DNA from: Candidatus Daviesbacteria bacterium
Lineage (GTDB): Bacteria; Patescibacteriota; Microgenomatia; Daviesbacterales; UBA10151
DNA length: 64,000 nucleotides
Direction of reading: 5' to 3'
Assembly: GCA_016176465.1 (NCBI GenBank)
Contig: JACOXD010000008.1
Coordinates: forward strand, 7,680 to 71,679
Shown: positions 20,372-61,603 of the stretch, in pieces
Layout: the number at the start of each line of letters is the position of its first letter
Position numbering within the stretch: the stretch's first letter is position 1
Made by a program: the position numbers and the translations under genes
The notes under the pieces: model-generated
The model's input: the letters and a program-made list of their open reading frames with translations, nothing else
Told to the model about the DNA's origin: nothing
Database searches by the model: none

Positions 20372-21001
20372 ATGTTTTATGACGCTCTAAAAAGATTAGT
20401 GGATCTTTTCGGCTCAACTTTAGCAATCACAATTTTATCTCCAATTTTTCTAGTTACCGCAATTGCTATAAAGCTTGACTCAAAAGGCCCCATTTTTGCC
20501 GATACTCCAATGAGAGTTGGAAGGAGTGGAGGGCTTTTTAAAATGTATAAATTTAGATCAATGGTAATAAATGCTCAAGATATTTTAATAAAAAACCCAA
20601 AGTTAATGGAGGAGTATAAAAAAAACAGCTATAAAATTCAAAATGATCCAAGAATTACTCAAGTTGGAAAGATTATTAGAAAATACTCAATAGATGAATT
20701 TCCTCAGTTTATTAATATACTAAGGGGAGAGATGAGCATCGTTGGCCCAAGAGCTTATTACCCTTTTGAGCTGGAAGAACAACAAGAAAAATACCCAAAT
20801 TCCAGAGAATTTGTTAAAATAATTTTATCAGCAAAACCAGGTTTAACAGGTATTTGGCAAGTATCCGGTAGATCTAATATAAACTTTGATAAGAGGGTAG
20901 AAATGGATGCCAAATACGTTCGCAAAAGATCTATTTTTTATGATATTTATCTCATTTTTAAAACTATTCCTGCAGTTTTGAGTGGAAGTGGCGCTATATA
21001 G
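20372..21001 (+). CDS. Small monotopic phosphoglycosyltransferase (bacterial sugar transferase, PglC/WbaP C-terminal-domain type)
   Basis: It has the motifs YKFRSM and DEFPQFINILRGEMSIVGPRA, and one N-terminal re-entrant helix. Confidence 0.8.
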   Translation: MFYDALKRLVDLFGSTLAITILSPIFLVTAIAIKLDSKGPIFADTPMRVGRSGGLFKMYKFRSMVINAQDILIKNPKLMEEYKKNSYKIQNDPRITQVGKIIRKYSIDEFPQFINILRGEMSIVGPRAYYPFELEEQQEKYPNSREFVKIILSAKPGLTGIWQVSGRSNINFDKRVEMDAKYVRKRSIFYDIYLIFKTIPAVLSGSGAI

Positions 21002-21092
21002 TTTTGGCATTTTCGCACCAAGCAGGTTCTGAGAGCTGGGTAAGAGTAGCGAAAAGCCAGTGCCACCTTTAAGCTATTATAGGGAGGATTAA

Positions 21093-23012
21093 ATGAAATT
21101 TATGAACTTAAACAAACGAATAGAAATGATGGATTCTAAAGCACGTTATAATAAAAGTAATATTAACATGGGAAGAAAAAGAAGCCGCAAACTTATTTTT
21201 CTAAGGGTTTTCATTATCTTATCTTTTCTTTTTGTGGCTATTTATTTACCCATTCGTGGTGTTTATTCTGGTTCTAGATCAATGGTCGCCTCTGCTAAAG
21301 CTATCCAGGCAGCAGCTAAAAATGAAAATTTAGATGATATCAGGAAAAATTTGGAGGAGATGAAGAAATCAGCAGGTGGGATGAACATGTCTTTGAACTT
21401 TTTATTTTGGTTAAGAATTATTCCCTTTGTGGGAGGTTACTACGCAGATGCTAAACATTTTGCTAAAGCTGCTGAGTATGAGCTAGATGCTGCCAAAGTA
21501 ATAGCTGATTCTCTAGATCCTTATAAAAATGAACTTGGGTTTACGGGACAGCCCACACCTGGACAAGATAGAGTTGCTCAACTTGTTAAAATTTTAGATA
21601 AAGTTTTGCCCCAAATAGATAAAGTTGAACCACAACTTAAAAAAGCTAGGGAAGAAGTAAAAAGTATTGATGTTAATAAATATCCGCAAACTTTAGGTGG
21701 GATTAGGTTAAAATCCAGGATAGATACTGCCAGAAATTTTATAATTGGAGCCCACTATGCAGTTACTGAGGCAAAGCCTGCCTTGGAAATTGCTCCCTCG
21801 GCTTTAGGTGAACCCATCGCTAAAAACTATTTAATAATTTTCCAAAATGATAAGGAACTTAGGGCAACAGGAGGTTTTATGACAGCTTATGCATATCTTA
21901 AGTTAGATAAAGGAAGGGTTTCATCTTCTTCCTCTGATGATATTTATAGATTGGATGAGAAATTACTAAGTGTTTGTTTGAGTAAAATTTGCCCGCTGGA
22001 TCCACCCTTACCTATTGTTAAATATTTGCCTGAAGCTACAGGTAAACAAAGAGAGGCATGGAGTATGAGAGATTCTAACCTTTCACCAGATCTGCCAACC
22101 TCAATGAGAGATTTTGAAAAAATGTACCAGATGCTTGGAGAAGGATTACCTTTTGATGGAATAATAATGATTGATACACATGTTGTTGAGGAATTAATTA
22201 AAATCACAGGCCCTGTTGAAGTTTTTGGTACAACTTATTCTGCAGAGTTAGATAAAAGGTGTAATTGTCCAAATGTAATTTATGAGCTGGAAAATTATGC
22301 CCAAATTGTCCAAAAAGGAGAAAAAGATAGGAAAGCTATCTTAGGAACCTTAATGCAACAAATTCTTGCGCGCTCACTTGGTTCATCCACAGATAAAATG
22401 CCTGAGTTTATTAATTCTGGTGTTAAATTAGCAATTGCTAAAAATGTAATGTTTTACCTTCATGACAGCAAAGCTCAGGATGCTTTCTCTAAGCTAAATT
22501 GGACAGGGGAGATTAAGGGCTTCAAAGGGGATTACTTACACATTAATGATTCTAATTTTGCAGGGGGTAAATCTAATCTTTATGTAACTGAGGAAGTTAG
22601 TTTAGATATTAATCTAGAAAAAGGGAAGGTTAAAAACAAATTAACTATAAACTATAAAAATCCTCAAAAATATAGCACTTGGCTAAATGGGAGAAACAGG
22701 GATTATGTGAGGATTTATGTTCCTCAAGGGGCAAAATTGCTTGATTCCAAGGGTTCTGATGTGCCTGTAACAACTATAGAGAAAGAACTGGGAAAAACTG
22801 TTTTTGAATCCTTTATAGAAATCCGCCCACAAAACTCCAGAGTTTTAAGCTTTGAATATGAGCTACCAAGTACTTTTTCAGATAAAGAATATCCTATTTT
22901 AATTCAAAAACAACCAGGGACTAAAGATTTTAAGTATGAGATTAAAATTAATGGAAAGAGTAAGGAAAAATTTGAGCTAAATGCTGATAAAGAACTAATT
23001 CTCCCAATCTAA
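21093..23012 (+). CDS. DUF4012-like exported protein
   Basis: It has an N-terminal signal anchor. The motif KELRATGGFMTAYAYL resembles the DUF4012 R-x-TGGF signature. The protein is 639 aa. Confidence 0.45.
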   Translation: MKFMNLNKRIEMMDSKARYNKSNINMGRKRSRKLIFLRVFIILSFLFVAIYLPIRGVYSGSRSMVASAKAIQAAAKNENLDDIRKNLEEMKKSAGGMNMSLNFLFWLRIIPFVGGYYADAKHFAKAAEYELDAAKVIADSLDPYKNELGFTGQPTPGQDRVAQLVKILDKVLPQIDKVEPQLKKAREEVKSIDVNKYPQTLGGIRLKSRIDTARNFIIGAHYAVTEAKPALEIAPSALGEPIAKNYLIIFQNDKELRATGGFMTAYAYLKLDKGRVSSSSSDDIYRLDEKLLSVCLSKICPLDPPLPIVKYLPEATGKQREAWSMRDSNLSPDLPTSMRDFEKMYQMLGEGLPFDGIIMIDTHVVEELIKITGPVEVFGTTYSAELDKRCNCPNVIYELENYAQIVQKGEKDRKAILGTLMQQILARSLGSSTDKMPEFINSGVKLAIAKNVMFYLHDSKAQDAFSKLNWTGEIKGFKGDYLHINDSNFAGGKSNLYVTEEVSLDINLEKGKVKNKLTINYKNPQKYSTWLNGRNRDYVRIYVPQGAKLLDSKGSDVPVTTIEKELGKTVFESFIEIRPQNSRVLSFEYELPSTFSDKEYPILIQKQPGTKDFKYEIKINGKSKEKFELNADKELILPI

Positions 23013-23013
23013 T

Positions 23014-23490
23014 TTATCTGGTAGCTGGCTTTGGCCAGTGAGCAACATATTCCCTTACTGGCCGGGAAAGAAATTCAGCTATAGGGCGATGATCATATTG
23101 TGTGAATCCTCCGTCGCTAAAATCATAAACCCTAAGATTCCACATTGGGTGCCTGGAATAATGGGGAGTTTCTATATAAGCTGTCAATAGTTGCATGCCA
23201 ATTTTGGCTTGTTCTACTACAGTTGGGGGATCCAAAGAAAGGTCTGGATTTCTAACATCTATTAATAATCCTCCTCCTTCTCTAAGTGTTACTTCCATGT
23301 AAATATATCCTCTTTCTTCTGGTTGCCCTGATATGGACAGAAGTAGATGCTTTGGTTTTTCAACAACTGATATCCTGCGGAGTTGTCCGTTTTGGTCTGG
23401 AGCGGTTACCATTATATCTCCTATGACAGATCTAGCTGTTGAAATAGTAGGATTTCCAGTTAACATTTGTTCTACGAGTTCATATGCCAT
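23014..23490 (-). CDS. Hypothetical protein (orphan, visibly higher GC than surroundings)
   Basis: The 158-aa ORF has no recognisable motif. It is convergent with the DUF4012 gene and sits immediately left of the duplicated recO 5' fragment. Confidence 0.35.
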   Translation of the reverse strand: MAYELVEQMLTGNPTISTARSVIGDIMVTAPDQNGQLRRISVVEKPKHLLLSISGQPEERGYIYMEVTLREGGGLLIDVRNPDLSLDPPTVVEQAKIGMQLLTAYIETPHYSRHPMWNLRVYDFSDGGFTQYDHRPIAEFLSRPVREYVAHWPKPATR

Positions 23491-23583
23491 ATTCTCAATA
23501 TTTTATCGTATGATCGATTATAATTCAAGTTATAGGTCATTTCCTCTATTGAAGCAAAGATATGCATAAGCTAAACTTACCTC

Positions 23584-23650
23584 ATGCCTGCGATAACTAC
23601 AGAAGGACTTATTTTAAAAAGATCTAATTTTGGGGAAGCGGATAGGGAAA
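23584..23650 (+). pseudogene. Duplicated 5' fragment of recO (first ~21 codons plus ~12 nt upstream)
   Basis: MPAITTEGLILKRSNFGEADR matches MPAVTTEGLILKRSNFGEADR of the full recO at 24757 (20/21 aa). Nucleotide identity is ~83%, with the mismatches mostly at synonymous positions. After codon 21 the reading frame runs into repeat elements. Confidence 0.6.
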
Positions 23651-23654
23651 ACTT

Positions 23655-23685
23655 TAGCTTTCCAATCCGGGATTATAGGTTCATA
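23655..23685 (+). repeat. Family C palindromic repeat, partial copy (tagctttccaatccgggattataggttcata)
   Basis: It matches 35119-35180 (tagctttcca...ttccaatccgggattgtaggttcata). Confidence 0.6.
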
Positions 23686-23742
23686 ATGCATTATAGATTC
23701 ATTATGCAAAAATTTAAACTTTGCTCCAAATTGCAGTTAAAA

Positions 23743-23776
23743 ATCCGCAGGTTACCGCTCAATCAACCCCGGGGGT
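23743..23776 (+). repeat. Family A 34-nt repeat ATCCGCAGGTTACCGCTCAATCAACCCCGGGGGT
   Basis: It is identical over 34 nt to 40514-40547, and a degenerate copy lies at 46223-46244. It is GC-rich with a CCCCGGGGG palindromic core. Confidence 0.8.
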
Positions 23777-23849
23777 GGAAACCTGGAAATCACAAAAATT
23801 TAGTCCCATAGTTTGATCTAATTATCATCTTGGTGTATTATCTACTCCT

Positions 23850-24605
23850 ATGTTTGATAGAGAGATGGCTAGAAGTATTATGCAAGAACTTAAAAAGGCC
23901 TCTATAGCAACTCGTAGAATTGTTGAGGATGGATTTGCAGGAGAAGGCGGGTACTGGGGAGCACGGAGGAGTAGCTTAATTAGCATTCAAGTTTTTTTTA
24001 TGGGTGTATTATCTTTACCCATAAAAACTCATTTAGAAATGTTTAAAGCCCCCGGTGAACAAATATATGGTTTGGATTTAATGGGTGAAGCGGAACATTT
24101 GAGAGATTTAAATGTTAGAGGTTTGGGAGTAACTGTGATTGATGATAGAAGTAGGGCAACAAAACTGGAGGACAATGAAAGAGGTATTACAATAATAGGA
24201 ACAAAATTTGATCCAGAAGCTAAGAAAATTATTGAGCTTTCCGATATTTTCTCCGGAAGAACAAGAAGGAGGATTCGAAGGTATATCAAGGATAATGAGA
24301 TTCCTGGTTTTGATTTAATTACTTGTCGTCCTCTTGGAGCTATAAGTTTGGTTCCAAAAGATGTGAATACAGCTTTTTACTTAGTGCAATTTATGTGGGG
24401 TTTACTAAATCCAGAGTATGGATTACTGTTAACTGAGGTGCCCAAAATTGATCCTGGCTTGGTTAATTCTTGGTCTGAGAGGTTAAATACTGATAGAATT
24501 TGTGCAAAATACAAAGAATTTCAGTTATTGAATCCAGGCATATTACAATTGGTAAAAACTCCATCTTCACCCAAGCATTTATCCTCTATTGAAGTTACTA
24601 GTTAA
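23850..24605 (+). CDS. Hypothetical protein (orphan)
   Basis: The 251-aa ORF lies between the recO fragment and intact recO. It has no recognisable motif. Confidence 0.35.
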   Translation: MFDREMARSIMQELKKASIATRRIVEDGFAGEGGYWGARRSSLISIQVFFMGVLSLPIKTHLEMFKAPGEQIYGLDLMGEAEHLRDLNVRGLGVTVIDDRSRATKLEDNERGITIIGTKFDPEAKKIIELSDIFSGRTRRRIRRYIKDNEIPGFDLITCRPLGAISLVPKDVNTAFYLVQFMWGLLNPEYGLLLTEVPKIDPGLVNSWSERLNTDRICAKYKEFQLLNPGILQLVKTPSSPKHLSSIEVTS

Positions 24606-24675
24606 TCTTGTTCACTTCAGTTAGGCAAATTGGTAAAATTTATCCTGACACCTTAAAAGTGTCATCTTAGACTTT

Positions 24676-24710
24676 TGATACAAAAATAGCTATAGCATAG
24701 TTTTGTATCA
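24676..24710. promoter_or_regulatory. Inverted repeat TGATACAAAA-N15-TTTTGTATCA upstream of recO
   Basis: It has a perfect 10-bp stem. Its half-site GATACAA is shared with the 18-bp palindrome at 29451. A second palindrome, TGACACCTTAAAAGTGTCA, lies at ~24646-24664. Confidence 0.4.
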
Positions 24711-24756
24711 GCTCCAAACTTGAATTAGACTCTAACCATGTTTAAACTTCCAATAT

Positions 24757-25395
24757 ATGCCGGCGGTTACCACAGAGGGGTTAATTTTAAAAAGGTCTAA
24801 TTTTGGAGAGGCGGATAGGGTTTTAACTGTACTTACAGATAGGTATGGCAAAATTTCTGTTATTGCTAAGGGAGTTAGAAGGATTACCTCCCGAAGAGCT
24901 GGGAATGTGGAGTTACTAAATAGAGTTAAGCTACATTTATTTAAAGCTAAAAATTATAACCTAACTGAGGCAGAATCTATAGAAACTTTTCCTAAATTAA
25001 AAGAGAACTTAACTCTATCTACAACAGCTTTCCATATTTTAGAGTTAATAGATAGATTAACAGCAGAAGAGCAAAAAAGTCCAAAGTTATATGAACTTAG
25101 TATCTCAATTTTTAGAATTTTAGAACAAAACCCCAGGCAAATTTTTATTAGAGGTTTTGAGGTTAAAATTTTATCTTTACTTGGGTTTTGGTCTATTAAT
25201 GCTATTAAAGAATTAAATGAGGAGCAGAAAAATATTTTGGAAAAGTTAGAATATCAGAGTTGGGAAAAAATAGGGGAGATAGATATTGGCCCCGAGCAAA
25301 GTGATAATTTAGAAAAAATATTAAGGTTTTACCTAGAAAAAATCCTAGAAAGTTCTCTTAAAAGTGTAAAGGTTTTAAAGGATTTAAAGAAGTAA
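24757..25395 (+). CDS. recO: DNA repair protein RecO (short form, no Zn finger)
   Basis: The N-terminal OB-fold segment TEGLILKRSNFGEADRVLTVLTDRYGKISVIAKG is typical of RecO. Confidence 0.65.
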   Translation: MPAVTTEGLILKRSNFGEADRVLTVLTDRYGKISVIAKGVRRITSRRAGNVELLNRVKLHLFKAKNYNLTEAESIETFPKLKENLTLSTTAFHILELIDRLTAEEQKSPKLYELSISIFRILEQNPRQIFIRGFEVKILSLLGFWSINAIKELNEEQKNILEKLEYQSWEKIGEIDIGPEQSDNLEKILRFYLEKILESSLKSVKVLKDLKK

Positions 25396-25419
25396 CTTTA
25401 TTTTTGATATTATATCTTT

Positions 25420-25677
25420 GTGAAGATAATCTTTACAAAACATGCTGAGTCAAAATTCCAAATTTTTTCATCTGGAAAAGTTGTTATAAATAAAGAGAAT
25501 GTTCTAGAGACTGTAAAAAGTCCTGATTTTAAGGATATTGAATCAGATAAACCAAAGATTATAGTTAGTAAGGAGTTAATTGATAAGCTCATTTTGAGAG
25601 TAGTCTATAAAAAAGAGCGTGGTATAATTACCATAGTTACGTTTTATCCCGCAAGGAAAGGAAGATATGAAAAGTAG
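25420..25677 (+). CDS. DUF4258-like small protein (putative toxin)
   Basis: It is 85 aa with a GTG start. Its pattern (MKIIFTKHAESKF...GIITIVTFYP) and size fit DUF4258. It overlaps the next ORF by 11 nt. Confidence 0.45.
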   Translation: MKIIFTKHAESKFQIFSSGKVVINKENVLETVKSPDFKDIESDKPKIIVSKELIDKLILRVVYKKERGIITIVTFYPARKGRYEK

Positions 25678-25921
25678 TCAAAAAATTAGTTACGAACCAA
25701 AAGATGATGTGTTAAATATTTGGCTGTCAAGGGAGCCTATTGATTACGCTGAGCAAAATGGTGATGTAATTGTCCACTTTAGTAAAGATAATGAAGCAGT
25801 TTATATAGAGATTCTTGATGCCAGTAAGATGTTAAAAGATTTAAGTAAAACTATTCCCAGTAATCTTAAAAAAAGTTGGTTTAGTATACCTACTTCTTCT
25901 ATAGCGCATAGAATTAAATAA
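25667..25921 (+). CDS. DUF2283-like small protein (putative antitoxin partner of DUF4258)
   Basis: MKSSQKISYEPKDDVLNIWLSREPIDYAEQNGDVIVHFSKDNEAVYIEILDASK matches the DUF2283 pattern (K..YD.E.D.LYI.L). Confidence 0.5.
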   Translation: MKSSQKISYEPKDDVLNIWLSREPIDYAEQNGDVIVHFSKDNEAVYIEILDASKMLKDLSKTIPSNLKKSWFSIPTSSIAHRIK

Positions 25922-25925
25922 ATTC

Positions 25926-26156
25926 GTGAAAAACAAAATTCAATATAGCGATGAACCAATTGAGGCAAGAGTAATAACTGATTTTTTACCAAGCCCTGAA
26001 AATTTAGTGCTCAAAGAAAAAAAGAAGAGAGTCACAATAACTTTAACTGATAAAAGTTTAGACTTCTTTAAAAAAGCTGCTAAAAAACATGGTGCTTCTT
26101 ATCAGGCAATGATAAGAAGGTTAATTGATTTCTATGTAGCTAACCAAAGAGTCTGA
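25926..26156 (+). CDS. BrnA/CopG-like ribbon-helix-helix antitoxin
   Basis: KRVTITLTDKSLDFFKKAAKKHGASYQAMIRRLIDFYV is BrnA-like (RHH followed by a helix). Confidence 0.5.
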   Translation: MKNKIQYSDEPIEARVITDFLPSPENLVLKEKKKRVTITLTDKSLDFFKKAAKKHGASYQAMIRRLIDFYVANQRV

Positions 26157-26321
26157 ATCATATTAGAAAAAATGACTTTGTGGTGGGAAAGGAATTGGCA
26201 TCGAGTTGTAAAAATTCTTATTATACTTTTTTTATTTTATCTTTGGTTGAATTAGTCCAAATAATCCCAGATAGCAAGCAGATTAATTGTGTTACAAGTG
26301 TCTTAGTAATAAAATGCAGAT

Positions 26322-29300
26322 ATGTTCAAGAGATATTTAAACGCAGTTTTTGAGAAATATAACACCGGTGAGGCTAGTGAACGGAGTTATTATTCATTAC
26401 TTGAGGAGTTGCTTAAGAGTTTCCAAAAAGATACACAAACAATTGTTGAAGCAAAGAAGTCGAGAGTTGGAATTCCTGACTTTAAAGTGAAGACTGAAAA
26501 AAACCTTTTAGTTGGTTATATTGAAGCTAAAGATTTAAGCAACGATTTAGATAAACTTGACAATGTAGATAAAGAACAAATAGAGAAATATAAGAAAGAA
26601 TACCCAAAACTTATAGTGACTAATTTTATTGAGTTTAAGCTATATGAAAATGGTGAATTAGTTGATTCTGTCTTTATTACTCAACCAATAACTCGTCAAA
26701 TTGGAATTCCAGCATTAGATAACGAAGCTAGGATTAATGGTTTATTTGAAAGATTTTTTTCAACCACAATACAAGAGGTTCATTCTGCAAAAAGATTGTC
26801 TGAGCTCTTAGCGCATAAAACACGAGTGTTGAGGGATTTAACCAGAGAAGAGATTGATCTAACTGATCAAGAAGAAACAGAAACAGAAAAGTTACTAAAG
26901 ACTTTCAAACAGACTCTTAAGCCCGATATGAGTCCAGATGTTTTTGCAGACATGTACGCCCAGACAATTACATTCGGACTGTTTGTAGCCAGAATCAATT
27001 CAGATCACCAAGAGTTTACTCGTCATAGTGCTCATTCATTGATACCTCATACAATTCCCCTTTTGAAAAAAATATTCTGGATTTTATCAGGCCAAGACGT
27101 ACCACAGCACATTGAATGGCAAATTGATGAAATCGCTGAGATTTTAGCAAATACCAAAATCGAAAAAATAACTGAGGAATTTTTCAGTCATGGAAAAGGT
27201 AGGGATCCCATCATACATTTTTACGAAACTTTTCTGTCAGAATATGATTCAAGTCAAAGGGAGCAGTTAGGGGTTTATTACACTCCACAACCAGTAGTTT
27301 CTTACATAACGAGATCACTAAATAAAATTTTAAAAAATAATTTTGGAAAAAGTGAAGGTTTTGCTGACACATCAGTAATATCTCTTGATCCGGCTGCTGG
27401 TACGCTTACTTTCCCTGCAGAAGCTATAGCAATTGCAAAGCAAGAATTTGAAGCCTCTCATGGGAGGGGAGGATGGAATAGCTTGGTGAAAGAACATATT
27501 CTCAAAAACTTTTATGCTTTTGAAATTTTAATGGCCCCGTATGCAATTGGACATCTAAAAATTTCTTTACTTCTTAAGGAGCTAGGTTACGAAATGAGTG
27601 AAGATGAGCGGTTTGAGTTATACCTTACGAATACTCTTGATATGTCCAAATTGAAACTCCAACAGGAAATGTTGGCTGAAGAGATATCAGAGGAATCTGA
27701 GAAGGCATTTGAGATAAAAGATAAAGTACCAGTCCTCATTGTTATGGGTAATCCCCCTTATTCTGGACACTCATCAAATAAAGGTGTGTGGATAGAAAAT
27801 CAAATAGAGGAATATAAAAAAGTTGACGGCAAACCATTAGGAGAAAGAAATCCCAAGTGGTTGAATGATGATTATGTAAAGTTTATACGTTTTGCCCAGT
27901 GGAAAATAGAAAAGACTGGCCAGGGTATTTTGGGATTTATCACCAACCATGCTTGGCTTGATAATCCAACTTTTAGAGGAATGAGAAACTCGTTGATGAA
28001 GTCCTTTGATGAGATATACATTCTAAATCTTCACGGTAGCGCACTGAAAAAAGAAAAAGTTCCAGAAGAGGTACAAGATAAAGAAAAAATTGGTGAGAGA
28101 GATGAGGGGGTTTTTGGTATTCGTCCAGGAACCGCTATTACATTAGCAGTAAAGAGAAATCAATCGAAGGGTAAGTCCAAAGTTTATTATTCTGGACAAT
28201 GGGGACTGAGAAGTAAGAAATTTGAATGGCTTGACAGTCACGACGTTGAACTTACAGATTGGAAACTTATTACTCCAAAGAGTTCAACTTATCTATTTAT
28301 AGAAAGAAATGAAAAGGAGTTTATTACTTATGAGAAGTTTACTTCAATTAGGGATGTTTTTCCTTTGAGTGGAATAGGAATTATAACAGCTCGTGACCAG
28401 TTTGTAATTGATCTTGATAAAAATGCGTTAGTAAATAGGATTAGATTATTTAAATATTCTAAGGAAAATGACGAACAATTGCACCTCCTATTTCAAATTA
28501 GCAAAAAGAAGGGTTGGTCTATCAGGAGAGCTTGGGAAATGTTGCAAAAAGTAAACGATGAGGAAATTAATGATTTAGTCGTTAAAATTCAATATAGACT
28601 CAACGATGAAAGATGGATTTTCTACCACGATTCTTTAGTTTGGAGGACAGTTAAGAGAATTATGTTTCAATTATTGAGACCAAACTTGGCATTGGTTACT
28701 TGTAGACAACTAACTGGTAGTAATTTCCAGCATTCCTTTGCGGTTGATAAATTAGTTGATGATAGTTTTATTTCAAATAAATCTAAGGAAAGAGGTTACG
28801 TCTTCCCATTGTATATTTATAGTGACAAAGGTCAACAAAGCCTTTTACTCGAAGATAGCGATAGAAGGCAGAATATAAACTGGAACTCATTGCCAGAATG
28901 GATGGCAATGATACAGCCTTTTACTTCTCACGCAACAAACAACTTTATTCAAGTTCCAGAAGCCATCTTTTATTATATTTATGCTGTTTTATATTCGAAT
29001 GTTTATCGCAAAAAATATCAGGAATTTCTGAAGTCTGATTTTCCAAGGATTCCTTTTACAAAGGACAATGAACTTTTCCGATCTTTAGCAATTCTGGGAG
29101 AGCAGTTAGTTGAACTTCACTTACTGAAATCAAAGTTACTAGTTAAACCAGTATCCCACTACGAAGGCAAGGGGGATAATAGGATAGGAAAAAGAAACTA
29201 TAATGGGTCATCCCGTGTTTATATAAACGATTCACAATTTTTTGACAAGGTTAGTCCAGAGGTTTGGAACTATTACATTGGTGGATACCAAGTATTGGAT

Positions 29301-29441
29301 AAGTGGTTAAAAGATAGAGTCGGACGAATTTTATCACTTGAAGATCAATTACATTATAGGAAAATGATTACTGCTTTATCTGAGACAATAAATATTCAGA
29401 AGAGAATTGATAAATTTTATCCTGAAGTGGAAAAACTTTAA
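26322..29441 (+). CDS. MmeI-like single-polypeptide type IIL restriction-modification enzyme (PD-ExK nuclease + gamma-class N6-adenine methyltransferase + TRD)
   Basis: The N-terminus has GIPDF...VGYIEAKD, a PD-(D/E)xK-like motif. The centre has DPAAGTLTF (motif I-like) and LIVMGNPPYSGHSS (motif IV NPPY). There is no Walker A or helicase motif. The 1039-aa length and domain order fit the MmeI family. Confidence 0.7.
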   Translation: MFKRYLNAVFEKYNTGEASERSYYSLLEELLKSFQKDTQTIVEAKKSRVGIPDFKVKTEKNLLVGYIEAKDLSNDLDKLDNVDKEQIEKYKKEYPKLIVTNFIEFKLYENGELVDSVFITQPITRQIGIPALDNEARINGLFERFFSTTIQEVHSAKRLSELLAHKTRVLRDLTREEIDLTDQEETETEKLLKTFKQTLKPDMSPDVFADMYAQTITFGLFVARINSDHQEFTRHSAHSLIPHTIPLLKKIFWILSGQDVPQHIEWQIDEIAEILANTKIEKITEEFFSHGKGRDPIIHFYETFLSEYDSSQREQLGVYYTPQPVVSYITRSLNKILKNNFGKSEGFADTSVISLDPAAGTLTFPAEAIAIAKQEFEASHGRGGWNSLVKEHILKNFYAFEILMAPYAIGHLKISLLLKELGYEMSEDERFELYLTNTLDMSKLKLQQEMLAEEISEESEKAFEIKDKVPVLIVMGNPPYSGHSSNKGVWIENQIEEYKKVDGKPLGERNPKWLNDDYVKFIRFAQWKIEKTGQGILGFITNHAWLDNPTFRGMRNSLMKSFDEIYILNLHGSALKKEKVPEEVQDKEKIGERDEGVFGIRPGTAITLAVKRNQSKGKSKVYYSGQWGLRSKKFEWLDSHDVELTDWKLITPKSSTYLFIERNEKEFITYEKFTSIRDVFPLSGIGIITARDQFVIDLDKNALVNRIRLFKYSKENDEQLHLLFQISKKKGWSIRRAWEMLQKVNDEEINDLVVKIQYRLNDERWIFYHDSLVWRTVKRIMFQLLRPNLALVTCRQLTGSNFQHSFAVDKLVDDSFISNKSKERGYVFPLYIYSDKGQQSLLLEDSDRRQNINWNSLPEWMAMIQPFTSHATNNFIQVPEAIFYYIYAVLYSNVYRKKYQEFLKSDFPRIPFTKDNELFRSLAILGEQLVELHLLKSKLLVKPVSHYEGKGDNRIGKRNYNGSSRVYINDSQFFDKVSPEVWNYYIGGYQVLDKWLKDRVGRILSLEDQLHYRKMITALSETINIQKRIDKFYPEVEKL

Positions 29442-29450
29442 TTGATTAAG

Positions 29451-29468
29451 GATACAATATATTGTATC
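29451..29468. promoter_or_regulatory. Perfect 18-bp palindrome GATACAATATATTGTATC abutting a TTGACT -35-like hexamer (29469-29474) upstream of the HNH gene
   Basis: This is a perfect inverted repeat seen directly in the sequence. It may be an operator site. Confidence 0.45.
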
Positions 29469-29505
29469 TTGACTTATTAACGGTGGTATATGTTATGGTG
29501 GAAGT

Positions 29506-29793
29506 ATGAATAGCTTACTAAAATGTCGTTATTGCGGTTGGGTGGGAGGAAAAAGTGATTTTGAATGGGATCATATGGATCCTAAAATTAAAACAGAGTC
29601 ATTTCTGTTAGATTTTCTACAAGGGAAACTTGAACTAATTTGTTCAGGATGTAATAGGCAAAAAAGCGATAAAACTTCACAAGATTATACATTTTGGAGA
29701 TGGTTATTCCCTAGACAGGCAAACTTTGGTCCTATAAGAGCACATACTTTTATGGATACATTGCTCCAAAGAATTCATAGAGAGATTAGATAA
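29506..29793 (+). CDS. HNH endonuclease-fold small protein
   Basis: It shows CRYCGW...EWDHMDP...GKLELICSGCNRQKSD, i.e. CxxC / D-H / N / CxxCN spacing. Confidence 0.55.
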   Translation: MNSLLKCRYCGWVGGKSDFEWDHMDPKIKTESFLLDFLQGKLELICSGCNRQKSDKTSQDYTFWRWLFPRQANFGPIRAHTFMDTLLQRIHREIR

Positions 29794-29832
29794 TTTTCCA
29801 ATATTTTTGATTCTATTTTTAAATAATTTTAT

Positions 29833-29901
29833 GTAACCCCAAATTCCACCTGTGTAACCCCAAATTCCACCTGGGAGGTGGATTAGCTTGACACCTAGGG
29901 A
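29833..29901 (+). repeat. Family B 69-nt composite repeat: tandem 21-mer x2 (GTAACCCCAAATTCCACCTGT), hairpin CCACCTGGGAGGTGG, then TTGACACCTAGGGA
   Basis: It is ~87% identical to 61273-61341. It contains an internal direct repeat plus a perfect 6-bp-stem GC hairpin. Confidence 0.8.
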
Positions 29902-29950
29902 TTTAAGAATTTTTTGAGGCTGTTTTGGATGAGTACATATTATAATACTT

Positions 29951-30150
29951 TTATGGCAATTGATTGGACAAACATTTATAAAAAATATAAGGGCCTTTGG
30001 GTGGCATTAAGAGAAGATGAGATAACTGTAGTTTCCTCTGGGAAAAATGCAAAAGAAGCTTGGGAAAAAGCACAAAAAATGGGCTTTAAAAAACCAATAT
30101 TAATGAATGTGCCTAAAAATTTAACTTATTTTGTCACTGGAACTTATTAA
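29951..30150 (+). CDS. Small DUF5678-like protein
   Basis: MAIDWTNIYKKYKGLWVALREDEITVVSSGKNAKEAWEKAQKMGFKKPILMNVP fits the pattern of small K-G-x-WVAL...VV..G...E...A...G...P proteins. The track ORF starts at a TTG at 29914; the ATG at 29951 is more likely. Confidence 0.4.
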
Positions 30151-30186
30151 TCTTCGACAATATCTCTCATAATTTGTGCTAAAAAA

Positions 30187-30195
30187 TGCTAGAAT
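30187..30195 (+). promoter_or_regulatory. Extended -10 promoter element TGCTAGAAT upstream of glyS, followed by a leader hairpin (aatgtcattctga...tcaggatgacaat)
   Basis: A TGnTAnAAT match lies ~85 nt upstream of the glyS ATG. The leader contains an imperfect 11-bp inverted repeat. Confidence 0.3.
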
Positions 30196-30275
30196 GAAAG
30201 GAATGTCATTCTGACACGTAAGTGAAGAATCTAATTAGATCCTTCGGCCAGAGCCTCAGGATGACAATATAAAAT

Positions 30276-31613
30276 ATGGATGATAACAAGCAAGATTTAA
30301 TGGAAAAAATTGTAGCTTTATGTAAGAGAAGGGGATTTATTTATCCTGGATCTGAAATTTATGGTGGTTTAGCAAATTCTTGGGACTATGGACCTTTAGG
30401 AGTGGAACTAAAAAATAATATTAAAAACCTTTGGTGGAAAAAGTTTGTACAAGGCAGAGATGATATTGTTGGAATTGATGCTTCTTTAATAATGAATCCA
30501 AAAGTTTGGGAAGCGAGTGGACATCTAGAAAATTTTACTGACCCTTTGGTTGAGTGTAAAGTTTGTCATCAACGTTTCAGGGCTGATGAGATAGAAGATG
30601 CTTGCCCGAATTGCGGAGAGAAAAATTCTTTTACAGAGACGAAGGTTTTTAATTTGATGTTCAAAACTTTCGTTGGTCCTGCCCAAGAAACTTCAAATGT
30701 TGCTTATTTTAGACCAGAAACAGCTCAGGCTATGTTTGTGGATTTTAAAAATGTGATTGATTCAACTAGAGTTAGACTTCCCTTTGGGATTGCTCAAATT
30801 GGAAAAGCTTTTAGAAATGAAATAACCCCAGGGAATTTTATTTTTAGGACTAGAGAGTTTGAGCTGATGGAAATTGAATATTTTATAAGAGTTCCAAAAT
30901 CAGATAAGGAATGGCAAAAAGAGTTTGAAAAATGGAAAGAAATGATGTGGAGTTGGATTGTGAATGATCTGGGAATTGATAAAACTAAAGTTCATGAACT
31001 AGAAGTGCCGGATGCAGAGCGTGCCCATTATTCCAAACGCACCATAGATTTTGAATATGATTTTCCTTTTGGTAGAAAAGAACTTTATGGGTTAGCATAT
31101 AGAACTGATTTTGACTTAAAGAATCATCAAGAATTCAGTGGCCAAAATCTAAAGTATAGAGATCCAGAGGCAGGTGAGGAGTTTTGGCCGCATGTAATAG
31201 AACCAGCGTTGGGGGTAGAGAGATCAGTTCTGGTTGTACTGGTCGATTCATATCGAGAAGATGAAGGAAGGGTGTATCTTAAACTTCCGGCCAAATTGGC
31301 TCCCTATAAAGCCGCTATATTTCCACTTTTAGGCAATAAACCAGAACTAATTGAGGTTGCTAGAAAAATTTATCTGGATTTAAGAAAAGAATTTATGGTA
31401 GCCTGGGATGACAGGGGAAATATAGGAAAGCGTTATGCAAGCCAGGATGAAATAGGAACACCCTACTGCATAACTGTTGATTTTGATTCACTAGAAGATG
31501 GCGCAGTAACTGTTAGGGATAGAGATAGCACTAAACAAGAAAGAGTTAAAATCCAAGAATTGAAAAATTACTTACTATCTTTTATAAATACTGAAAAATG
31601 TTTTACTTCGTAA
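30276..31613 (+). CDS. glyQS: Glycine--tRNA ligase (alpha2 type)
   Basis: It is 445 aa. The N-terminal GFIYPGSEIYGGLANSWDYGPLGVELKNNI and class II motifs are present. Confidence 0.85.
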   Translation: MDDNKQDLMEKIVALCKRRGFIYPGSEIYGGLANSWDYGPLGVELKNNIKNLWWKKFVQGRDDIVGIDASLIMNPKVWEASGHLENFTDPLVECKVCHQRFRADEIEDACPNCGEKNSFTETKVFNLMFKTFVGPAQETSNVAYFRPETAQAMFVDFKNVIDSTRVRLPFGIAQIGKAFRNEITPGNFIFRTREFELMEIEYFIRVPKSDKEWQKEFEKWKEMMWSWIVNDLGIDKTKVHELEVPDAERAHYSKRTIDFEYDFPFGRKELYGLAYRTDFDLKNHQEFSGQNLKYRDPEAGEEFWPHVIEPALGVERSVLVVLVDSYREDEGRVYLKLPAKLAPYKAAIFPLLGNKPELIEVARKIYLDLRKEFMVAWDDRGNIGKRYASQDEIGTPYCITVDFDSLEDGAVTVRDRDSTKQERVKIQELKNYLLSFINTEKCFTS

Positions 31614-35121: not shown

Positions 35122-35180
35122 CTTTCCAGCCTTCCAATCCCGGTTTGTAAACCTACTTCCAATCCGGGATTGTAGGTTCA
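35119..35180. repeat. Family C palindromic repeat, full copy (tagctttccagccttccaatcccggtttgtaaacctacttccaatccgggattgtaggttcat)
   Basis: It has nested inverted repeats (CCAATCCGGGATTG; GTAAACCTAC/GTAGGTT). An inverted copy lies at 45982-46030 and a partial copy at 23655-23685. It is followed at ~35204-35238 by CCTTAGGTGTC and the hairpin CCCACACCGGGTGTGGG. Confidence 0.7.
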
Positions 35181-35328
35181 TATCCCTTGAAATTAAAATA
35201 ATTCCTTAGGTGTCTAGCTAACCCACACCGGGTGTGGGAGGGGGTTAAACCTACCCTATAGTCAAAGGTCTGAAAATTAAATAAGCTTACTTTAGTTTAG
35301 AGCTTCTACAAGCTATAATAAGCTCAAA

Positions 35329-40513: not shown

Positions 40514-40547
40514 ATCCGCAGGTTACCGCTCAATCAACCCCGGGGGT
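40514..40547 (+). repeat. Family A 34-nt repeat (second exact copy)
   Basis: It is identical to 23743-23776. It lies 13 nt after the ftsW stop and is followed by TTTCCGTATTTCC, which is roughly the inverse of GGAAACCTGGAAAT that follows copy 1. Confidence 0.8.
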
Positions 40548-45981: not shown

Positions 45982-46030
45982 TGAACCTACAATCCCGGAT
46001 TGTAAATTCATTTCCAAACCCGGATTGGAA
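45982..46030. repeat. Family C palindromic repeat, inverted copy (tgaacctacaatcccggattgtaaattcatttccaaacccggattggaa)
   Basis: It is the reverse-complement orientation of 35119-35180. It lies in the 565-bp ileS upstream region. Confidence 0.65.
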
Positions 46031-46222: not shown

Positions 46223-46244
46223 ATCCACAGGTTAACCCTGAATC
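46223..46244 (+). repeat. Family A repeat, degenerate copy (ATCCACAGGTTAACCCTGAATC)
   Basis: It matches the 5' 22 nt of the 34-mer with ~4 mismatches. It lies ~190 nt after a family C copy, the same C-then-A order as at 23655/23743. Confidence 0.45.
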
Positions 46245-46463
46245 TAGAACTAGGAGAGCGTTTTCCTATGGACCAGCAGGGGAATATCTTTTTTTTGGTT
46301 CGCAAAGGTGGTTTTACACTCAGCTAGTAATACTAAAACTGCTCCTTAACCTATTGGAAGAGGATTGGTAATAAAGTTAAGCTATAGCACGAAACTGTCA
46401 TCTGAAATTTTTCTCTAATCATATTGTTGCAGTCAAACTATCAAGTTAGTTACAATACTAAGC

Positions 46464-61272: not shown

Positions 61273-61341
61273 GTAATCCCAAATCCCACCTGCGTAATCC
61301 CAAATCCCACCTGGGAGGTGGATTCCTATTGACACCTAGGG
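61273..61341 (+). repeat. Family B 69-nt composite repeat (second copy), located between tRNA-Asp and the orphan ORF
   Basis: GTAATCCCAAATCCCACCTGCGTAATCCCAAATCCCACCTGGGAGGTGGATTCCTATTGACACCTAGGGA is ~60/69 identical to 29833-29901. Confidence 0.8.
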
Positions 61342-61435: not shown

Positions 61436-61603
61436 TCGTCGGGTCAAGGCTTCAACTGCCACAATTTCACAGTTGCTTCAGTTTACGCCTGCCCCTCCTC
61501 TTAAAATCTTTACAAGATTTTGGAAAAAGGAATCTTAAGAAACCTCAAAATTGTAGCAAAGCTAGTATTAAGAATCAATCCTACCTGTGTTATATTACTA
61601 ACT

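What the first reader, a model, noticed from the sequence alone, without database searches (positions are those of the whole stretch)
23570..24756. Diverged duplicate of the recO 5' end brackets a ~1.2-kb insertion carrying orphan ORFs and two repeat families
A ~80-nt segment (about 12 nt upstream plus the first 21 codons of recO) occurs twice: at 23572-23650 and again at the intact recO start at 24745-24822. The copies are only ~83% identical at nucleotide level (about 11 mismatches over 64 nt by eye), but 20/21 codons are conserved and almost all changes are synonymous. This suggests the upstream copy was not a recent local duplication. A more likely source is a related recO imported with an element that integrates at the recO 5' end, which then supplies a replacement 5' end. 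Between the copies lie a family C repeat, a family A 34-mer, a 251-aa orphan ORF (23850..24605) and two palindromes, but no integrase. Immediately to the left is a higher-GC 158-aa orphan on the opposite strand. Together this looks like a decayed or non-autonomous integrated element, or a novel small cargo cassette targeting recO.
Basis: partly seen in the sequence, partly recalled or inferred. Interest (0 to 1): 0.7.

Follow-up and report, generated by a model that had tools for sequence, protein, structure and literature searches.

The report
Imported cassette displaced recO's start
In an uncultivated groundwater bacterium (Candidatus Daviesbacteria), about 1.2 kb of DNA carrying a methyltransferase-like gene sits inside the start of the DNA-repair gene recO together with a replacement gene start from another lineage, the old 21-codon start is stranded upstream, and two related genomes show the same arrangement with different cargo.

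Summary
A 64-nt copy of the recO start (23584-23647) lies 1173 nt upstream of the intact recO (24757-25395). The copies are 83% identical, 20 of 21 residues match, and 9 of 11 differences are at third codon positions.

Relatives normally have DUF4012 followed by recO, with a variable slot between them. One relative (L061) has an ORF158 homologue divergently next to a full recO. ORF158 plus the stub therefore looks like the resident arrangement.

Across 28 relatives, the stub shares the similarity profile of recO codons 22-60. The functional gene's own codons 1-21 do not, and their GC3 is 0.48 against 0.23. The working recO is therefore a chimera with an imported start.

Two further Daviesbacteria loci (L074, L111) carry independent stubs ending at nt 55-64, each with different cargo. 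No integrase, conserved element ends or viral relative was found.

ORF251 is not an orphan. It belongs to an uncharacterised family with a methyltransferase fold.

Best reading: recurrent "5'-end displacement" during import of slot cargo, by recombination anchored in recO. A site-specific cassette without its own integrase remains a serious rival.

The parts
23014..23490 (-). ORF158, a conserved hypothetical protein. It is the resident divergent neighbour of recO and not part of the insertion.
   Evidence: Its only homologue, P0004 (57-58% identical), lies divergently 97 nt from a full-length recO in L061. In the window it lies 93 nt from the stub. GC3 is 0.266, typical for the genome. No Pfam or PADLOC hit. 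The AF2 model is weak (pLDDT 67) and has no fold match.
23549..23583 (+). Resident-type recO promoter: TTGAAG (23549-23554), 17-nt spacer, TAAACT (23572-23577), then 6 nt to the ATG. This geometry suggests a leaderless transcript.
   Evidence: TAAACT (or a one-base variant) followed by 6 or 9 nt and the ATG recurs upstream of recO in most relatives. The string TAAACTTACCTC is identical in L004 and in the L111 stub. L061 has CTATTGAAGC, 17 nt, then TAAACT. Function is inferred from sigma-70 promoter geometry and was not measured.
23584..23647 (+). Displaced recO 5' stub (codons 1-21 plus one base). It opens a 75-aa chimeric ORF (23584-23811) that is probably meaningless.
   Evidence: 53/64 identical to 24757-24820. 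nhmmer E=2e-15, covering profile positions 1-64. 55/64 identical to L061 recO, against 47/64 for the functional copy. Its similarity profile across 28 relatives tracks that of recO codons 22-60 (rho 0.50-0.52, p about 0.005).
23648..23849 (+). Left part of the inserted block. It holds a one-arm remnant of a REP-like hairpin element (23655-23685), an 18-nt near-tandem (23671-23713), a 34-mer (23743-23776) and a promoter-like site for ORF251 (23813-23841).
   Evidence: The REP-like unit is 96% identical to 35157-35182, and 45982-46002 also matches on the minus strand. The 34-mer is 100% identical to 40514-40547. Both families are absent from about 1 Mb of relatives' loci. The two-unit copy at 35118-35190 folds strongly (z=-4.5), whereas the copy here does not. 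The string CCCATAGTTTGAT upstream of ORF251 is shared with its homologue's locus L060. Promoter scan.
23850..24605 (+). ORF251, the cargo gene. It belongs to an uncharacterised family of about 240-260 aa with a class I SAM-methyltransferase (Rossmann) fold.
   Evidence: 138 representative homologues, no Pfam family. The family profile hits RlmE/FtsJ structure 3dou at E=2e-4. AF2 pLDDT is 92.7. Foldseek against PDB finds MtmC, Spb1, MnmM, YtqB and FtsJ with probability about 1 and TM 0.35-0.47. Homologues in L060, L065 and L066 are not next to recO. GC3 is 0.259.
24606..24719 (+). Spacer after ORF251 containing hairpins. The clearest has 13-nt arms at 24676-24688 and 24698-24710.
   Evidence: Inverted repeat I6, 92% complementary. 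The fold of 24603-24720 shows that stem, but the overall z-score is only -1.4 and there is no T-run terminator. A role as terminator is inferred only.
24720..24756 (+). Promoter-like site in front of the functional recO: TTGAAT (24720-24725), 17-nt spacer, TAAACT (24743-24748), then 8 nt to the ATG. This spacing is atypical.
   Evidence: Read directly from the sequence. Most relatives have 6 or 9 nt between the box and the ATG.
24757..24820 (+). Imported 5' end of the functional recO (codons 1-21).
   Evidence: GC3 is 10/21 = 0.48 against 0.23 for codons 22-212. That is the highest of all 192 windows in recO, is reached by 1.8% of 17,543 windows in other genes, and by none of 51 other gene starts. 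Codon identity to L061 at identical residues is 6/18, against 87/143 for the rest of the gene and 13/17 for the stub. Its similarity profile does not follow that of codons 22-60 (rho 0.06-0.17; third positions -0.41 to -0.48).
24757..25395 (+). Functional recO (212 aa), a mosaic gene.
   Evidence: Pfam RecO_N and RecO_C. Segment-wise identities change their nearest relative along the gene. Codons 22-60 are closest to L067 and L061, and codons 141-212 to L004, with a 78-nt identical run at 25195-25272.

Best explanation
This is a '5'-end displacement' of recO.

In Daviesbacteria, recO is a conserved gene that sits next to a hypervariable slot between DUF4012 and recO. Different lineages keep different accessory genes in that slot.

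In this genome the resident arrangement was DUF4012, then ORF158 on the reverse strand, then the promoter, then recO. DNA from another Daviesbacteria lineage then recombined with it. That DNA carried slot cargo (the methyltransferase-like ORF251 with its own promoter and trailing hairpins) followed by the donor's recO promoter and first codons.

The right-hand crossover was homologous and fell inside recO at about codons 18-21. The left-hand joint was illegitimate and fell at nt 64 of the resident recO.

The result is a working chimeric recO made of a foreign promoter and codons 1-21 joined to the resident body. The resident promoter and codons 1-21 remain as a dead stub upstream of the cargo.

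The same type of event happened independently in at least two other lineages with other cargo.

Shown: the xenologous origin of the two copies, the breakpoint at about codon 21/22, the resident status of ORF158 plus the stub, recurrence, and the absence of a recombinase gene.

Inferred: the recombination pathway (homology-facilitated illegitimate recombination after DNA uptake, or an equivalent one-ended repair), leaderless expression, and the direction of transfer of the cargo.
For: 1. Differences between stub and gene start are concentrated at third positions: 9/11 in the window, 10/14 in L074 and 6/7 in L111 (p=0.0014, 0.004 and 0.007). Both copies therefore evolved as working gene starts in separate lineages.

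2. Synteny. About 30 distinct relatives have sugar transferase, DUF4012, then recO. The gap before recO is 5-70 nt, or is filled with unrelated genes. L061 has ORF158hom, a 97-nt spacer, then a full recO, and its spacer aligns with the window's 93-nt spacer. ORF158 divergence (57%) is about equal to aaRS divergence (59%) between the two genomes.

3. Breakpoint. Across 28 relatives, similarity to recO codons 22-60 correlates with similarity to the stub (rho 0.50-0.52, p about 0.005). It does not correlate with the gene's own codons 1-21 (0.06-0.17; third positions -0.41 to -0.48). Fifteen single-copy control loci mostly give 0.3-0.7. There is also a GC3 anomaly in codons 1-21 and a codon-identity contrast with L061 (6/18 vs 87/143 vs 13/17).

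4. recO is visibly mosaic elsewhere. It shares a 78-nt identical run and about 90% identity with L004 over 25185-25395, against 70-78% upstream. Homologous exchange inside recO between lineages therefore does occur.

5. Recurrence with unrelated cargo. L074 carries DUF5678 plus a retropepsin-like protease, and L111 carries a 115-aa coiled-coil ORF.

6. No sign of a dedicated recombinase. There is no integrase or transposase in about 45 ORFs of the window, nor in the three loci. Cargo ends are not conserved. The identical stretch before the joint is only 10, 4-5 and 3 nt, which is the size of the microhomologies reported for homology-facilitated illegitimate recombination. That size range comes from my own recall of de Vries and Wackernagel 2002, which is cited in PMC5361080.

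7. The same logic, mirrored, is published for rhs, cdiA and T6SS loci. There, incoming modules displace old gene ends that persist as orphans with a piece of the conserved core (PMC5361080).
Against: 1. The supposedly imported block begins with two repeat families that are specific to this genome and 96-100% identical to copies elsewhere in the window. Either they invaded later, or the donor was a very close relative, or the right-hand side is resident (rival 2).

2. ORF251 has genome-typical GC3. There is therefore no compositional sign of import, although donors from the same clade would look the same.

3. Three independent stubs end within a 10-nt span, at profile positions 55, 61 and 64. 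Random illegitimate joints would not cluster like this unless the GC-rich patch GGNGARGCNGATAGGG is a microhomology hotspot, or longer stubs are selected against. The clustering fits a site-specific process better.

4. The statistics rest on 63 nt and on relatives that are not independent. Versus the relative with the highest overall RecO identity (L004, 84%), the two copies are equally distant, 50 against 51 of 64.

5. L074 gives no signal and L111 only a weak one in the same direction.

6. No donor and no empty-site genome were found. The closest RecO in the databases is 84% identical.
Confidence: 0.5

Rival explanations
1. Site-specific, non-autonomous cassette. Small circular cassettes carry an attP-like copy of the recO start, with or without a promoter. 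A recombinase encoded elsewhere (for example a Xer-like or phage/ICE integrase) integrates them at a site around codons 15-21 of recO. [quoted passage not shown]
For: Three independent insertions with different cargo all duplicate the same segment, from the ATG to nt 55-64. The string ATTTTGG (nt 44-50) is identical in all six copies, and the window has a 10-nt identical stretch at the joint. The cassettes are small (517-1173 nt) and hold 1-2 genes. The imported start restores the gene, a known strategy of integrative elements (PMC2791158).
Against: No integrase lies in the cassettes, in the three loci or in about 45 ORFs of the window. The three cassettes share no end sequences or inverted repeats. 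Homology ends at different nucleotides, and only 3-5 identical nt precede the joint in L111 and L074. No recO-5'-like sequence occurs in 2.9 million viral contigs. Most filled slots in relatives have no stub at all.
Confidence: 0.22
2. Reverse polarity. The resident arrangement was REP, 34-mer, ORF251, promoter, recO. What was imported is the left block: the end of DUF4012, ORF158, the promoter and a donor recO truncated at nt 64. It was anchored by homology in DUF4012 and joined illegitimately upstream of ORF251. recO was never interrupted, and the stub is just the ragged end of a foreign fragment.
For: The DNA immediately right of the joint carries repeat families specific to this genome, at 96-100% identity to other copies. 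No disruption and rescue of a repair gene is needed. L004, the relative with the highest overall RecO identity, is nearer to the functional copy in the first 30 nt, with 4 against 8 differences. ORF158 occurs in only one other known genome.
Against: The stub, not the functional start, shares the similarity profile of recO codons 22-60. The functional start has anomalous GC3 and an atypical distance between the -10 box and the ATG. ORF158's divergence from its L061 homologue equals that of a housekeeping aaRS, as expected for vertical descent. DUF4012 shows no 3'-terminal shift in similarity. The clustering of stub ends remains unexplained under this model too.
Confidence: 0.15
3. Local duplication followed by divergence, with the upstream copy retained because it is useful. 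It might serve as a promoter plus leader peptide driving the cargo.
For: The stub keeps an intact promoter-like site and, in the window and L111, an ATG. In L074 the cargo and recO have no other obvious promoter.
Against: Divergence of 12-26% that is almost purely synonymous, including AGT against TCA for serine in L074, cannot accumulate in a 21-codon peptide whose downstream reading frame differs in every case (75, 32 and 22 aa). The start codon is lost in L074. The stub and the gene start have different nearest relatives.
Confidence: 0.04
4. Assembly artefact. The contig is a chimera of two strains or species joined at a repeat.
For: The window comes from a metagenome bin. A 34-nt exact repeat lies inside the insertion, and k=31 Logan contigs break there.
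Against: Independent assemblies of several runs reproduce DUF4012, ORF158, stub, REP up to the 34-mer (L062-L064), and the 34-mer, ORF251, recO (L001-L003). The stub-to-REP joint lies inside those contigs. The two 34-mer copies are direct repeats on one contig, so no alternative linear path exists. Two other assemblies from other projects show the same architecture.
Confidence: 0.03

Closest known systems
SXT/R391 integrative conjugative elements in the 5' end of prfC (Hochhut & Waldor 1999; PMC2791158)
   Same: The insertion is in the 5' end of a conserved housekeeping gene. The incoming DNA brings a substitute start, so the gene stays functional, and the old start is left at the other junction.
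   Different: SXT is about 100 kb, encodes its own tyrosine integrase and Xis, and recombines nearly identical attP and attB cores at one fixed position. Here the inserts are 0.5-1.2 kb, have no recombinase and no conserved ends, and the joints differ by up to 9 nt.
e14 and phage 21 in the 3' end of icd in E. coli (recalled from the literature, not checked here)
   Same: A duplicated gene end differs from the displaced one mostly by synonymous changes, because the element carries a foreign version of the gene end.
   Different: The 3' end is involved rather than the 5' end. These are integrase-encoding prophage elements with no promoter replacement.
C-terminal displacement in rhs, cdiA and T6SS effector loci, leaving orphan modules (PMC5361080 and references therein)
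   Same: An incoming module recombines through a conserved part of a resident gene. The old variable end is displaced but kept, often with a short piece of the conserved core. The process recurs and is additive, needs no dedicated recombinase, and has been attributed to homology-facilitated illegitimate recombination.
   Different: Those cases concern 3' ends of toxin genes and are driven by toxin/immunity selection. Here it is the 5' end and promoter of a DNA-repair gene, and the cargo lies outside the gene.
Homology-facilitated illegitimate recombination during natural transformation (de Vries & Wackernagel 2002; Prudhomme et al. 2002; cited in PMC5361080 and PMC3240628)
   Same: One homologous anchor plus one illegitimate joint at a short microhomology adds foreign DNA next to the anchor.
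   Different: This mechanism was shown experimentally in Acinetobacter, Streptococcus and Pseudomonas. It is not shown in Patescibacteria, the donor sequence is unknown here, and the clustering of joints is not a known feature.
Integron gene cassettes and cis-mobilisable integrase-less elements (CIMEs)
   Same: Small units of 1-2 genes are inserted at a recurrent site. In L074 they are expressed from a resident promoter.
   Different: No IntI, attI or attC-like structure is shared by the three cassettes. The flanking repeats are gene-start copies from different lineages, not recombination sites of a known type.

Membership tests
Site-specific integrative element (attL/attR created by a tyrosine or serine integrase) | Integrase or recombinase gene in or next to the element | tested here: not met
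   Pfam scans of every ORF from 20372 to 31613, of about 45 ORFs across the window, and of the L074 and L111 cargo found no recombinase.
Site-specific integrative element (attL/attR created by a tyrosine or serine integrase) | Identical core sequence at both junctions and the same crossover position in independent insertions | tested here: inconclusive
   The identical stretch before the joint is 10 nt in the window, 4-5 nt in L074 and 3 nt in L111. Homology ends at nt 64, 55 and 61. ATTTTGG (nt 44-50) is shared by all six copies.
Site-specific integrative element (attL/attR created by a tyrosine or serine integrase) | Conserved element ends or arm sites among family members | tested here: not met
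   The sequences right of the three left joints, and those left of the three gene starts, share nothing recognisable.
Site-specific integrative element (attL/attR created by a tyrosine or serine integrase) | Excised circular form and precise empty site | not testable with these tools
   This needs the raw reads of SRR12113383, SRR12113384, SRR12113420, SRR12113424 and SRR12113430. No genome closer than 84% RecO identity is available.
Gene-end displacement by homology-anchored (HFIR-like) import | The two repeat copies come from different lineages (xenologous) | tested here: met
   Third-position excess in all three loci. The two copies have different nearest relatives.
Gene-end displacement by homology-anchored (HFIR-like) import | Recombination breakpoint inside the anchor gene at the edge of the repeat | tested here: met
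   Affinity-profile test and GC3 step at codon 21/22. The statistics are moderate because the segment is only 63 nt.
Gene-end displacement by homology-anchored (HFIR-like) import | Microhomology between donor and recipient at the illegitimate joint | not testable with these tools
   The donor sequence left of the cargo is unknown.
Gene-end displacement by homology-anchored (HFIR-like) import | Host able to take up and recombine foreign DNA | tested here: inconclusive
   A second mosaic tract in recO (25185-25395, about 90% identity to L004 with a 78-nt identical run) shows that homologous exchange between lineages happens. Competence genes were not searched for.
Integron gene cassette | attC recombination site at the cassette end and an IntI/attI platform | tested here: not met
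   No IntI was found. Hairpins follow ORF251 in the window only. L074 has 2 nt between the cargo stop codon and the recO ATG.
Class I SAM-dependent methyltransferase (ORF251) | Rossmann-like seven-stranded methyltransferase fold | tested here: met
   AF2 pLDDT 92.7. The top Foldseek PDB hits are almost all methyltransferases (probability about 1, TM 0.35-0.47). The family profile hits 3dou at E=2e-4.
Class I SAM-dependent methyltransferase (ORF251) | Membership of a curated methyltransferase family, and an intact glycine-rich SAM-binding motif I | tested here: inconclusive
   ORF251 has no Pfam hit, and only 1 of 74 homologues hits Methyltransf_31 (E=8e-4). The family consensus is LDLMGxG, and ORF251 has LDLMGEA. 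Catalytic activity is unproven.
RecO (24757-25395) | RecO_N and RecO_C domains over the full length | tested here: met
   PF11967 at 4.8e-18 and PF02565 at 3.8e-17. 58-84% identical to Daviesbacteria RecO proteins.
REP/RAYT-type repetitive extragenic palindromes (family C repeat) | Hairpin-forming intergenic repeat associated with a RAYT (IS200/IS605-like) transposase | tested here: not met
   The hairpin is strong for the two-unit copy (z=-4.5). The 139-aa ORF beside the 45982 copy hits only an RNA polymerase alpha CTD-like domain. No transposase was found in the window.

The most novel reading that the evidence does not exclude
Daviesbacteria, and perhaps other Patescibacteria, may host a previously undescribed class of minimal mobile cassettes. 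Each would carry only cargo plus a portable copy of the start of a leaderless housekeeping gene (recO). The cassette would insert at a defined spot around codons 18-21, using either a host or in-trans recombinase or the host's own recombination machinery. In this way it would hijack the resident promoter and hand the gene a new start. The gene start itself would act as the attachment or homology site.
Probability: 0.2. Interest if true: 0.8.

Novelty: new variant of a known kind. Interest (0 to 1): 0.6.

Why it matters
Candidate Phyla Radiation bacteria have tiny genomes, few recognisable mobile elements and almost no genetics. How they acquire accessory genes is therefore largely unknown.

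This locus gives a concrete and repeatable footprint of gene gain: a stranded, foreign-looking copy of a gene start. It shows that a core DNA-repair gene serves as the conserved anchor between two hypervariable slots, and that recO is itself a patchwork of alleles from different lineages.

If the footprint proves to be site-specific, it would define a new minimal type of integrative cassette and a natural landing site usable for engineering these organisms. If it comes from homology-anchored illegitimate recombination, it extends the 'displacement with orphan remnants' model from the 3' ends of toxin genes to the 5' end and promoter of a housekeeping gene.

It also offers a simple search image for tracing horizontal transfer in metagenome bins: diverged, mostly synonymous copies of gene ends.

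Tried and rejected
- Looked for the empty site or a closer strain. The exact-protein look-up for RecO found nothing. The nearest RecO in GTDB genomes, JGI metagenomes and the 5.8-billion-protein set is 84% identical.
- Looked for other copies of the cassette. ORF251 has only two homologues above 37% identity, on short contigs and not next to recO. It has no relatives in viral contigs.
- Looked for a phage or element carrying a recO-start attP. A degenerate pattern for codons 7-20 found nothing in IMG/VR.
- Tested whether the 139-aa ORF beside REP-like repeats is a RAYT transposase. It is not.
- Tested compositional foreignness of ORF158 and ORF251. Both have normal GC3.
- Tried to assign a function to ORF158. 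There is no family hit, the model is poor and there is no fold match.
- PADLOC gave only weak, partial hits for the cargo genes.
- Repeated the chimera test on L074. It was uninformative because no close relatives exist.
- Looked in DUF4012 for a recombination breakpoint that would support reverse polarity. None was evident.
- Rfam found only four tRNAs in the window.
- The first literature search for recO as an integration site was useless, because the term matched 'recombination'.
- Considered a tandem or local duplication, a functional leader peptide and misassembly. These were rejected as set out under the rivals.
Full report
**Source and setting.** The window is chromosomal DNA of a Candidatus Daviesbacteria metagenome bin. 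ORF251 and RecO carry NCBI names from a 96-kb contig with HYS91 locus tags. GC content is 33%. The gene content is core: a glycosyltransferase cluster, rsmH, DUF4012, recO, a class II aaRS, mraZ, a PBP, mur ligases, ftsW, ileS, parB and a PolX. No integrase or transposase was found in about 45 ORFs.

**The observation.** A 64-nt direct repeat joins 23584-23647 to 24757-24820, with 53/64 identical bases. It runs exactly from the ATG to the first base of codon 22. Nine codons differ. Eight are synonymous and one is I4V, and 9 of the 11 changed bases are third positions (p=0.0014). A profile of 31 Daviesbacteria recO starts detects the upstream copy at E=2e-15.

Upstream of the two ATGs nothing aligns except a TAAACT box.
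- ORF251 has 138 representative homologues and a confident methyltransferase fold.
- ORF158's extra GC lies in codon positions 1 and 2, while its GC3 is normal.
- The 'family C' copy inside the insertion is a one-arm remnant of a hairpin element whose full form is at 35118-35190.

**What relatives show.** In about 30 distinct Daviesbacteria loci the order is sugar transferase, DUF4012, recO. The DUF4012-recO gap is 5-70 nt in many. In others it holds unrelated genes:
- a PsbP-like 360-aa protein (L005);
- a 662-aa membrane protein (L010);
- a 931-aa reverse-strand membrane protein (L079);
- a response-regulator pair (L087, L076);
- a 187-aa reverse-strand gene (L108, L109).

This is a hypervariable slot. 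The only homologue of ORF158 (P0004, 57%) lies in L061 on the reverse strand between the DUF4012 end and a full-length recO, 97 nt from its ATG. In the window ORF158 lies 93 nt from the stub, and the two spacers align, including CTATTGAAGC, 17 nt, then TAAACT.

Between the window and L061, ORF158 is 57% identical, the aaRS 59% and RecO 77%. ORF158 therefore looks vertically inherited. The left half of the region (ORF158, promoter, 21 codons) is what an uninterrupted locus looks like. The inserted piece is 23648-24820 (1173 nt), or equivalently 23584-24756.

**Which recO start is the original?** Several measures point the same way.

| Measure | Functional gene, codons 1-21 | Stub | recO codons 22-212 |
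|---|---|---|---|
| GC3 | 10/21 (0.48) | 0.24 | 0.23 |
| Codon identity with L061 at identical residues | 6/18 | 13/17 | 87/143 |

- The GC3 of 0.48 is the highest of 192 windows in recO. Only 1.8% of 17,543 windows in other genes reach it, and none of 51 other gene starts do.
- The codon-identity contrasts with L061 give Fisher p=0.04 and 0.02. The trend is the same but not significant with L004, L005 and L006.
- The clearest test uses 28 relatives. Their similarity to recO codons 22-60 correlates with their similarity to the stub (Spearman 0.50-0.52, p about 0.005; third positions 0.40-0.45). It does not correlate with their similarity to the gene's own first 21 codons (0.06-0.17; third positions -0.41 to -0.48). 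Fifteen single-copy loci used as controls mostly give 0.3-0.7.
- The stub also has the canonical TAAACT-N6-ATG geometry, and its leader is identical to that of L004 and of the L111 stub. The functional gene has N8.

I conclude, with moderate confidence, that the working recO is a chimera: a foreign promoter and codons 1-21 on a resident body.

recO is mosaic at its other end as well. Positions 25185-25395 are about 90% identical to L004, with a 78-nt perfect run, against 70-78% upstream.

**Recurrence.** A tblastn scan, a motif scan, the nucleotide profile and a self-search of 109 recO loci found exactly two more stubs.

- **L074** (JGI contig). The order is DUF4012, a reverse-strand HTH gene, TAAACT-N6, a stub (ATA start, codons 1-18/19, 74% identical to its gene), DUF5678, a retropepsin-like protease, then recO starting 2 nt after the cargo stop with no promoter box.
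- **L111** (Logan contig). The order is TAAACTTACCTC, a stub (codons 1-20, 88% identical), a 115-aa coiled-coil ORF, TAAACT-N6, then recO.

In both, the differences are again mostly at third positions (10/14 and 6/7). They include AGT against TCA for one serine. The stubs end at profile positions 64, 55 and 61. The three cargos are unrelated. Homologues of ORF251 elsewhere are not next to recO.

**Mechanism.** Three facts have to be explained:
1. One copy is foreign.
2. The gene is restored and the old start is retained.
3. The event recurs, with joints clustered at nt 55-64.

*Homology-anchored import.* Donor DNA of the form 'cargo, promoter, recO...' pairs with the resident recO. The non-homologous end is joined illegitimately inside the resident gene start. 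This accounts for the first two facts, for the missing recombinase, for the unrelated cassette ends, for the short and unequal identical stretches at the joints (10, 4-5 and 3 nt), and for the mosaic nature of recO.

It is the mirror image of the published displacement model for rhs, cdiA and T6SS loci (PMC5361080). The clustering then needs a secondary explanation. GGNGARGCNGATAGGG is the GC-richest patch in an AT-rich region, so it may be a microhomology hotspot. Longer stubs would encode part of the RecO OB fold and may be counter-selected. Joints in the spacer would leave no detectable coding stub.

*Site-specific cassette with a recombinase in trans.* This is analogous to SXT in prfC (PMC2791158). 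It explains the clustering directly but has no other positive evidence.

*Reverse polarity.* Here the ORF158 block is the import. This is favoured by the genome-specific repeats sitting just right of the joint. It is disfavoured by the affinity test, the GC3 step and ORF158's level of divergence.

*Local duplication and misassembly.* The synonymous divergence pattern and the independent assemblies argue against these.

**Consequences, all inferred.**
- The resident promoter now reads into the stub, giving a 75-aa chimeric ORF, and into the REP remnant.
- ORF251 has its own promoter-like site, conserved with its homologue in L060.
- recO is expressed from the imported promoter.
- In L074 the resident promoter appears to drive cargo and recO as one operon.

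**Verdict.** It is best described as a new variant of a known kind of event: a gene end replaced and displaced by incoming DNA. It is seen here at the 5' end of a housekeeping gene in CPR bacteria, three times independently. The pathway is unresolved.

Noticed in passing
window 25185-25395: The 3' third of recO is about 90% identical to the recO of L004, with a 78-nt perfect run at 25195-25272. The first 430 nt are only 70-78% identical. This looks like a second, recent recombination tract, which makes recO a three-part mosaic.
   Followed up: partly
window 25396-30275: A second insertion lies on the other side of recO. It holds three small toxin-antitoxin-like genes (weak PBECR3-like, DUF2283, RHH/BrnA-like) and a 1039-aa Type ISP/MmeI-like restriction-modification enzyme, between recO and the class II aaRS. 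In L061 and L112 the aaRS follows recO directly. L109 shares the R-M enzyme (86% identity in the first 593 aa) but has it split into two ORFs.
   Followed up: partly
window 23572-23586 and 24743-24759; L004-L019, L108-L111 upstream of recO: A TAAACT box (or a one-base variant) sits 6 nt, less often 9 nt, before the recO ATG in most Daviesbacteria, with no room for a Shine-Dalgarno sequence. This is the geometry expected for a leaderless mRNA starting at the A of the ATG.
   Followed up: partly
window 23542-23554 and 24582-24594: The exact 13-mer TCCTCTATTGAAG covers the -35 region of the stub's promoter and recurs in the last codons of ORF251 (...HLSSIEVTS*). With flanks the match is about 18 of 20 nt, allowing a 2-nt indel. 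The duplicated block may once have extended further upstream, or this may be chance.
   Followed up: no
window 23557-23572 and 21884-21899: A 16-nt exact inverted match (AAGATATGCATAAGCT) links the spacer of the stub's promoter to the inside of the DUF4012 gene. Extended to 32 nt it is 81% complementary. E is about 0.016, so its significance is unclear.
   Followed up: no
window 23655-23685, 35118-35190, 45982-46030; 23743-23776, 40514-40547, 46223-46256: There are two genome-specific intergenic repeat families. One is a REP-like hairpin element with units around CAATCCSGGATTG (the two-unit copy folds with z=-4.5). The other is a 34-mer ending in the palindrome CCCCGGGG, with two identical copies. 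Neither occurs in about 1 Mb of related loci, and no RAYT-like transposase is nearby.
   Followed up: partly
window 29833-29884 and 61273-61324: A 52-nt repeat at 90% identity has an internal tandem (GTAAYCCCAAATYCCACCTG x2) and a CCACCTGGGAGGTGG hairpin. One copy follows the R-M gene and the other lies just beyond the 3' end of tRNA-Asp.
   Followed up: no
window 23850-24605; P0002, P0005-P0140: ORF251 defines a sizeable uncharacterised protein family with no Pfam model: 138 clusters at 50% identity, about 230-260 aa, consensus LDLMGxG...GFDLIxCRPxGG. It has a confident methyltransferase-like fold and an N-terminal helical extension.
   Followed up: partly
L074 9902-10264: A small GIY-YIG nuclease gene directly follows recO in the second locus that carries a stub. 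No link to the insertion was established.
   Followed up: no
window 61520-63361: A PolX-family polymerase (pol beta-like thumb, HHH and PHP domains) is encoded in the window. An enzyme of this type could take part in gap filling during end joining. This is mentioned only as context for illegitimate joining.
   Followed up: no
L005, L010, L079, L087/L076, L108/L109, between DUF4012 and recO: The DUF4012-recO gap is a hypervariable slot filled with unrelated genes in different lineages (PsbP-like, large membrane proteins, a response regulator, 187-aa and 97-aa reverse-strand genes). In most cases no recO stub is present.
   Followed up: partly
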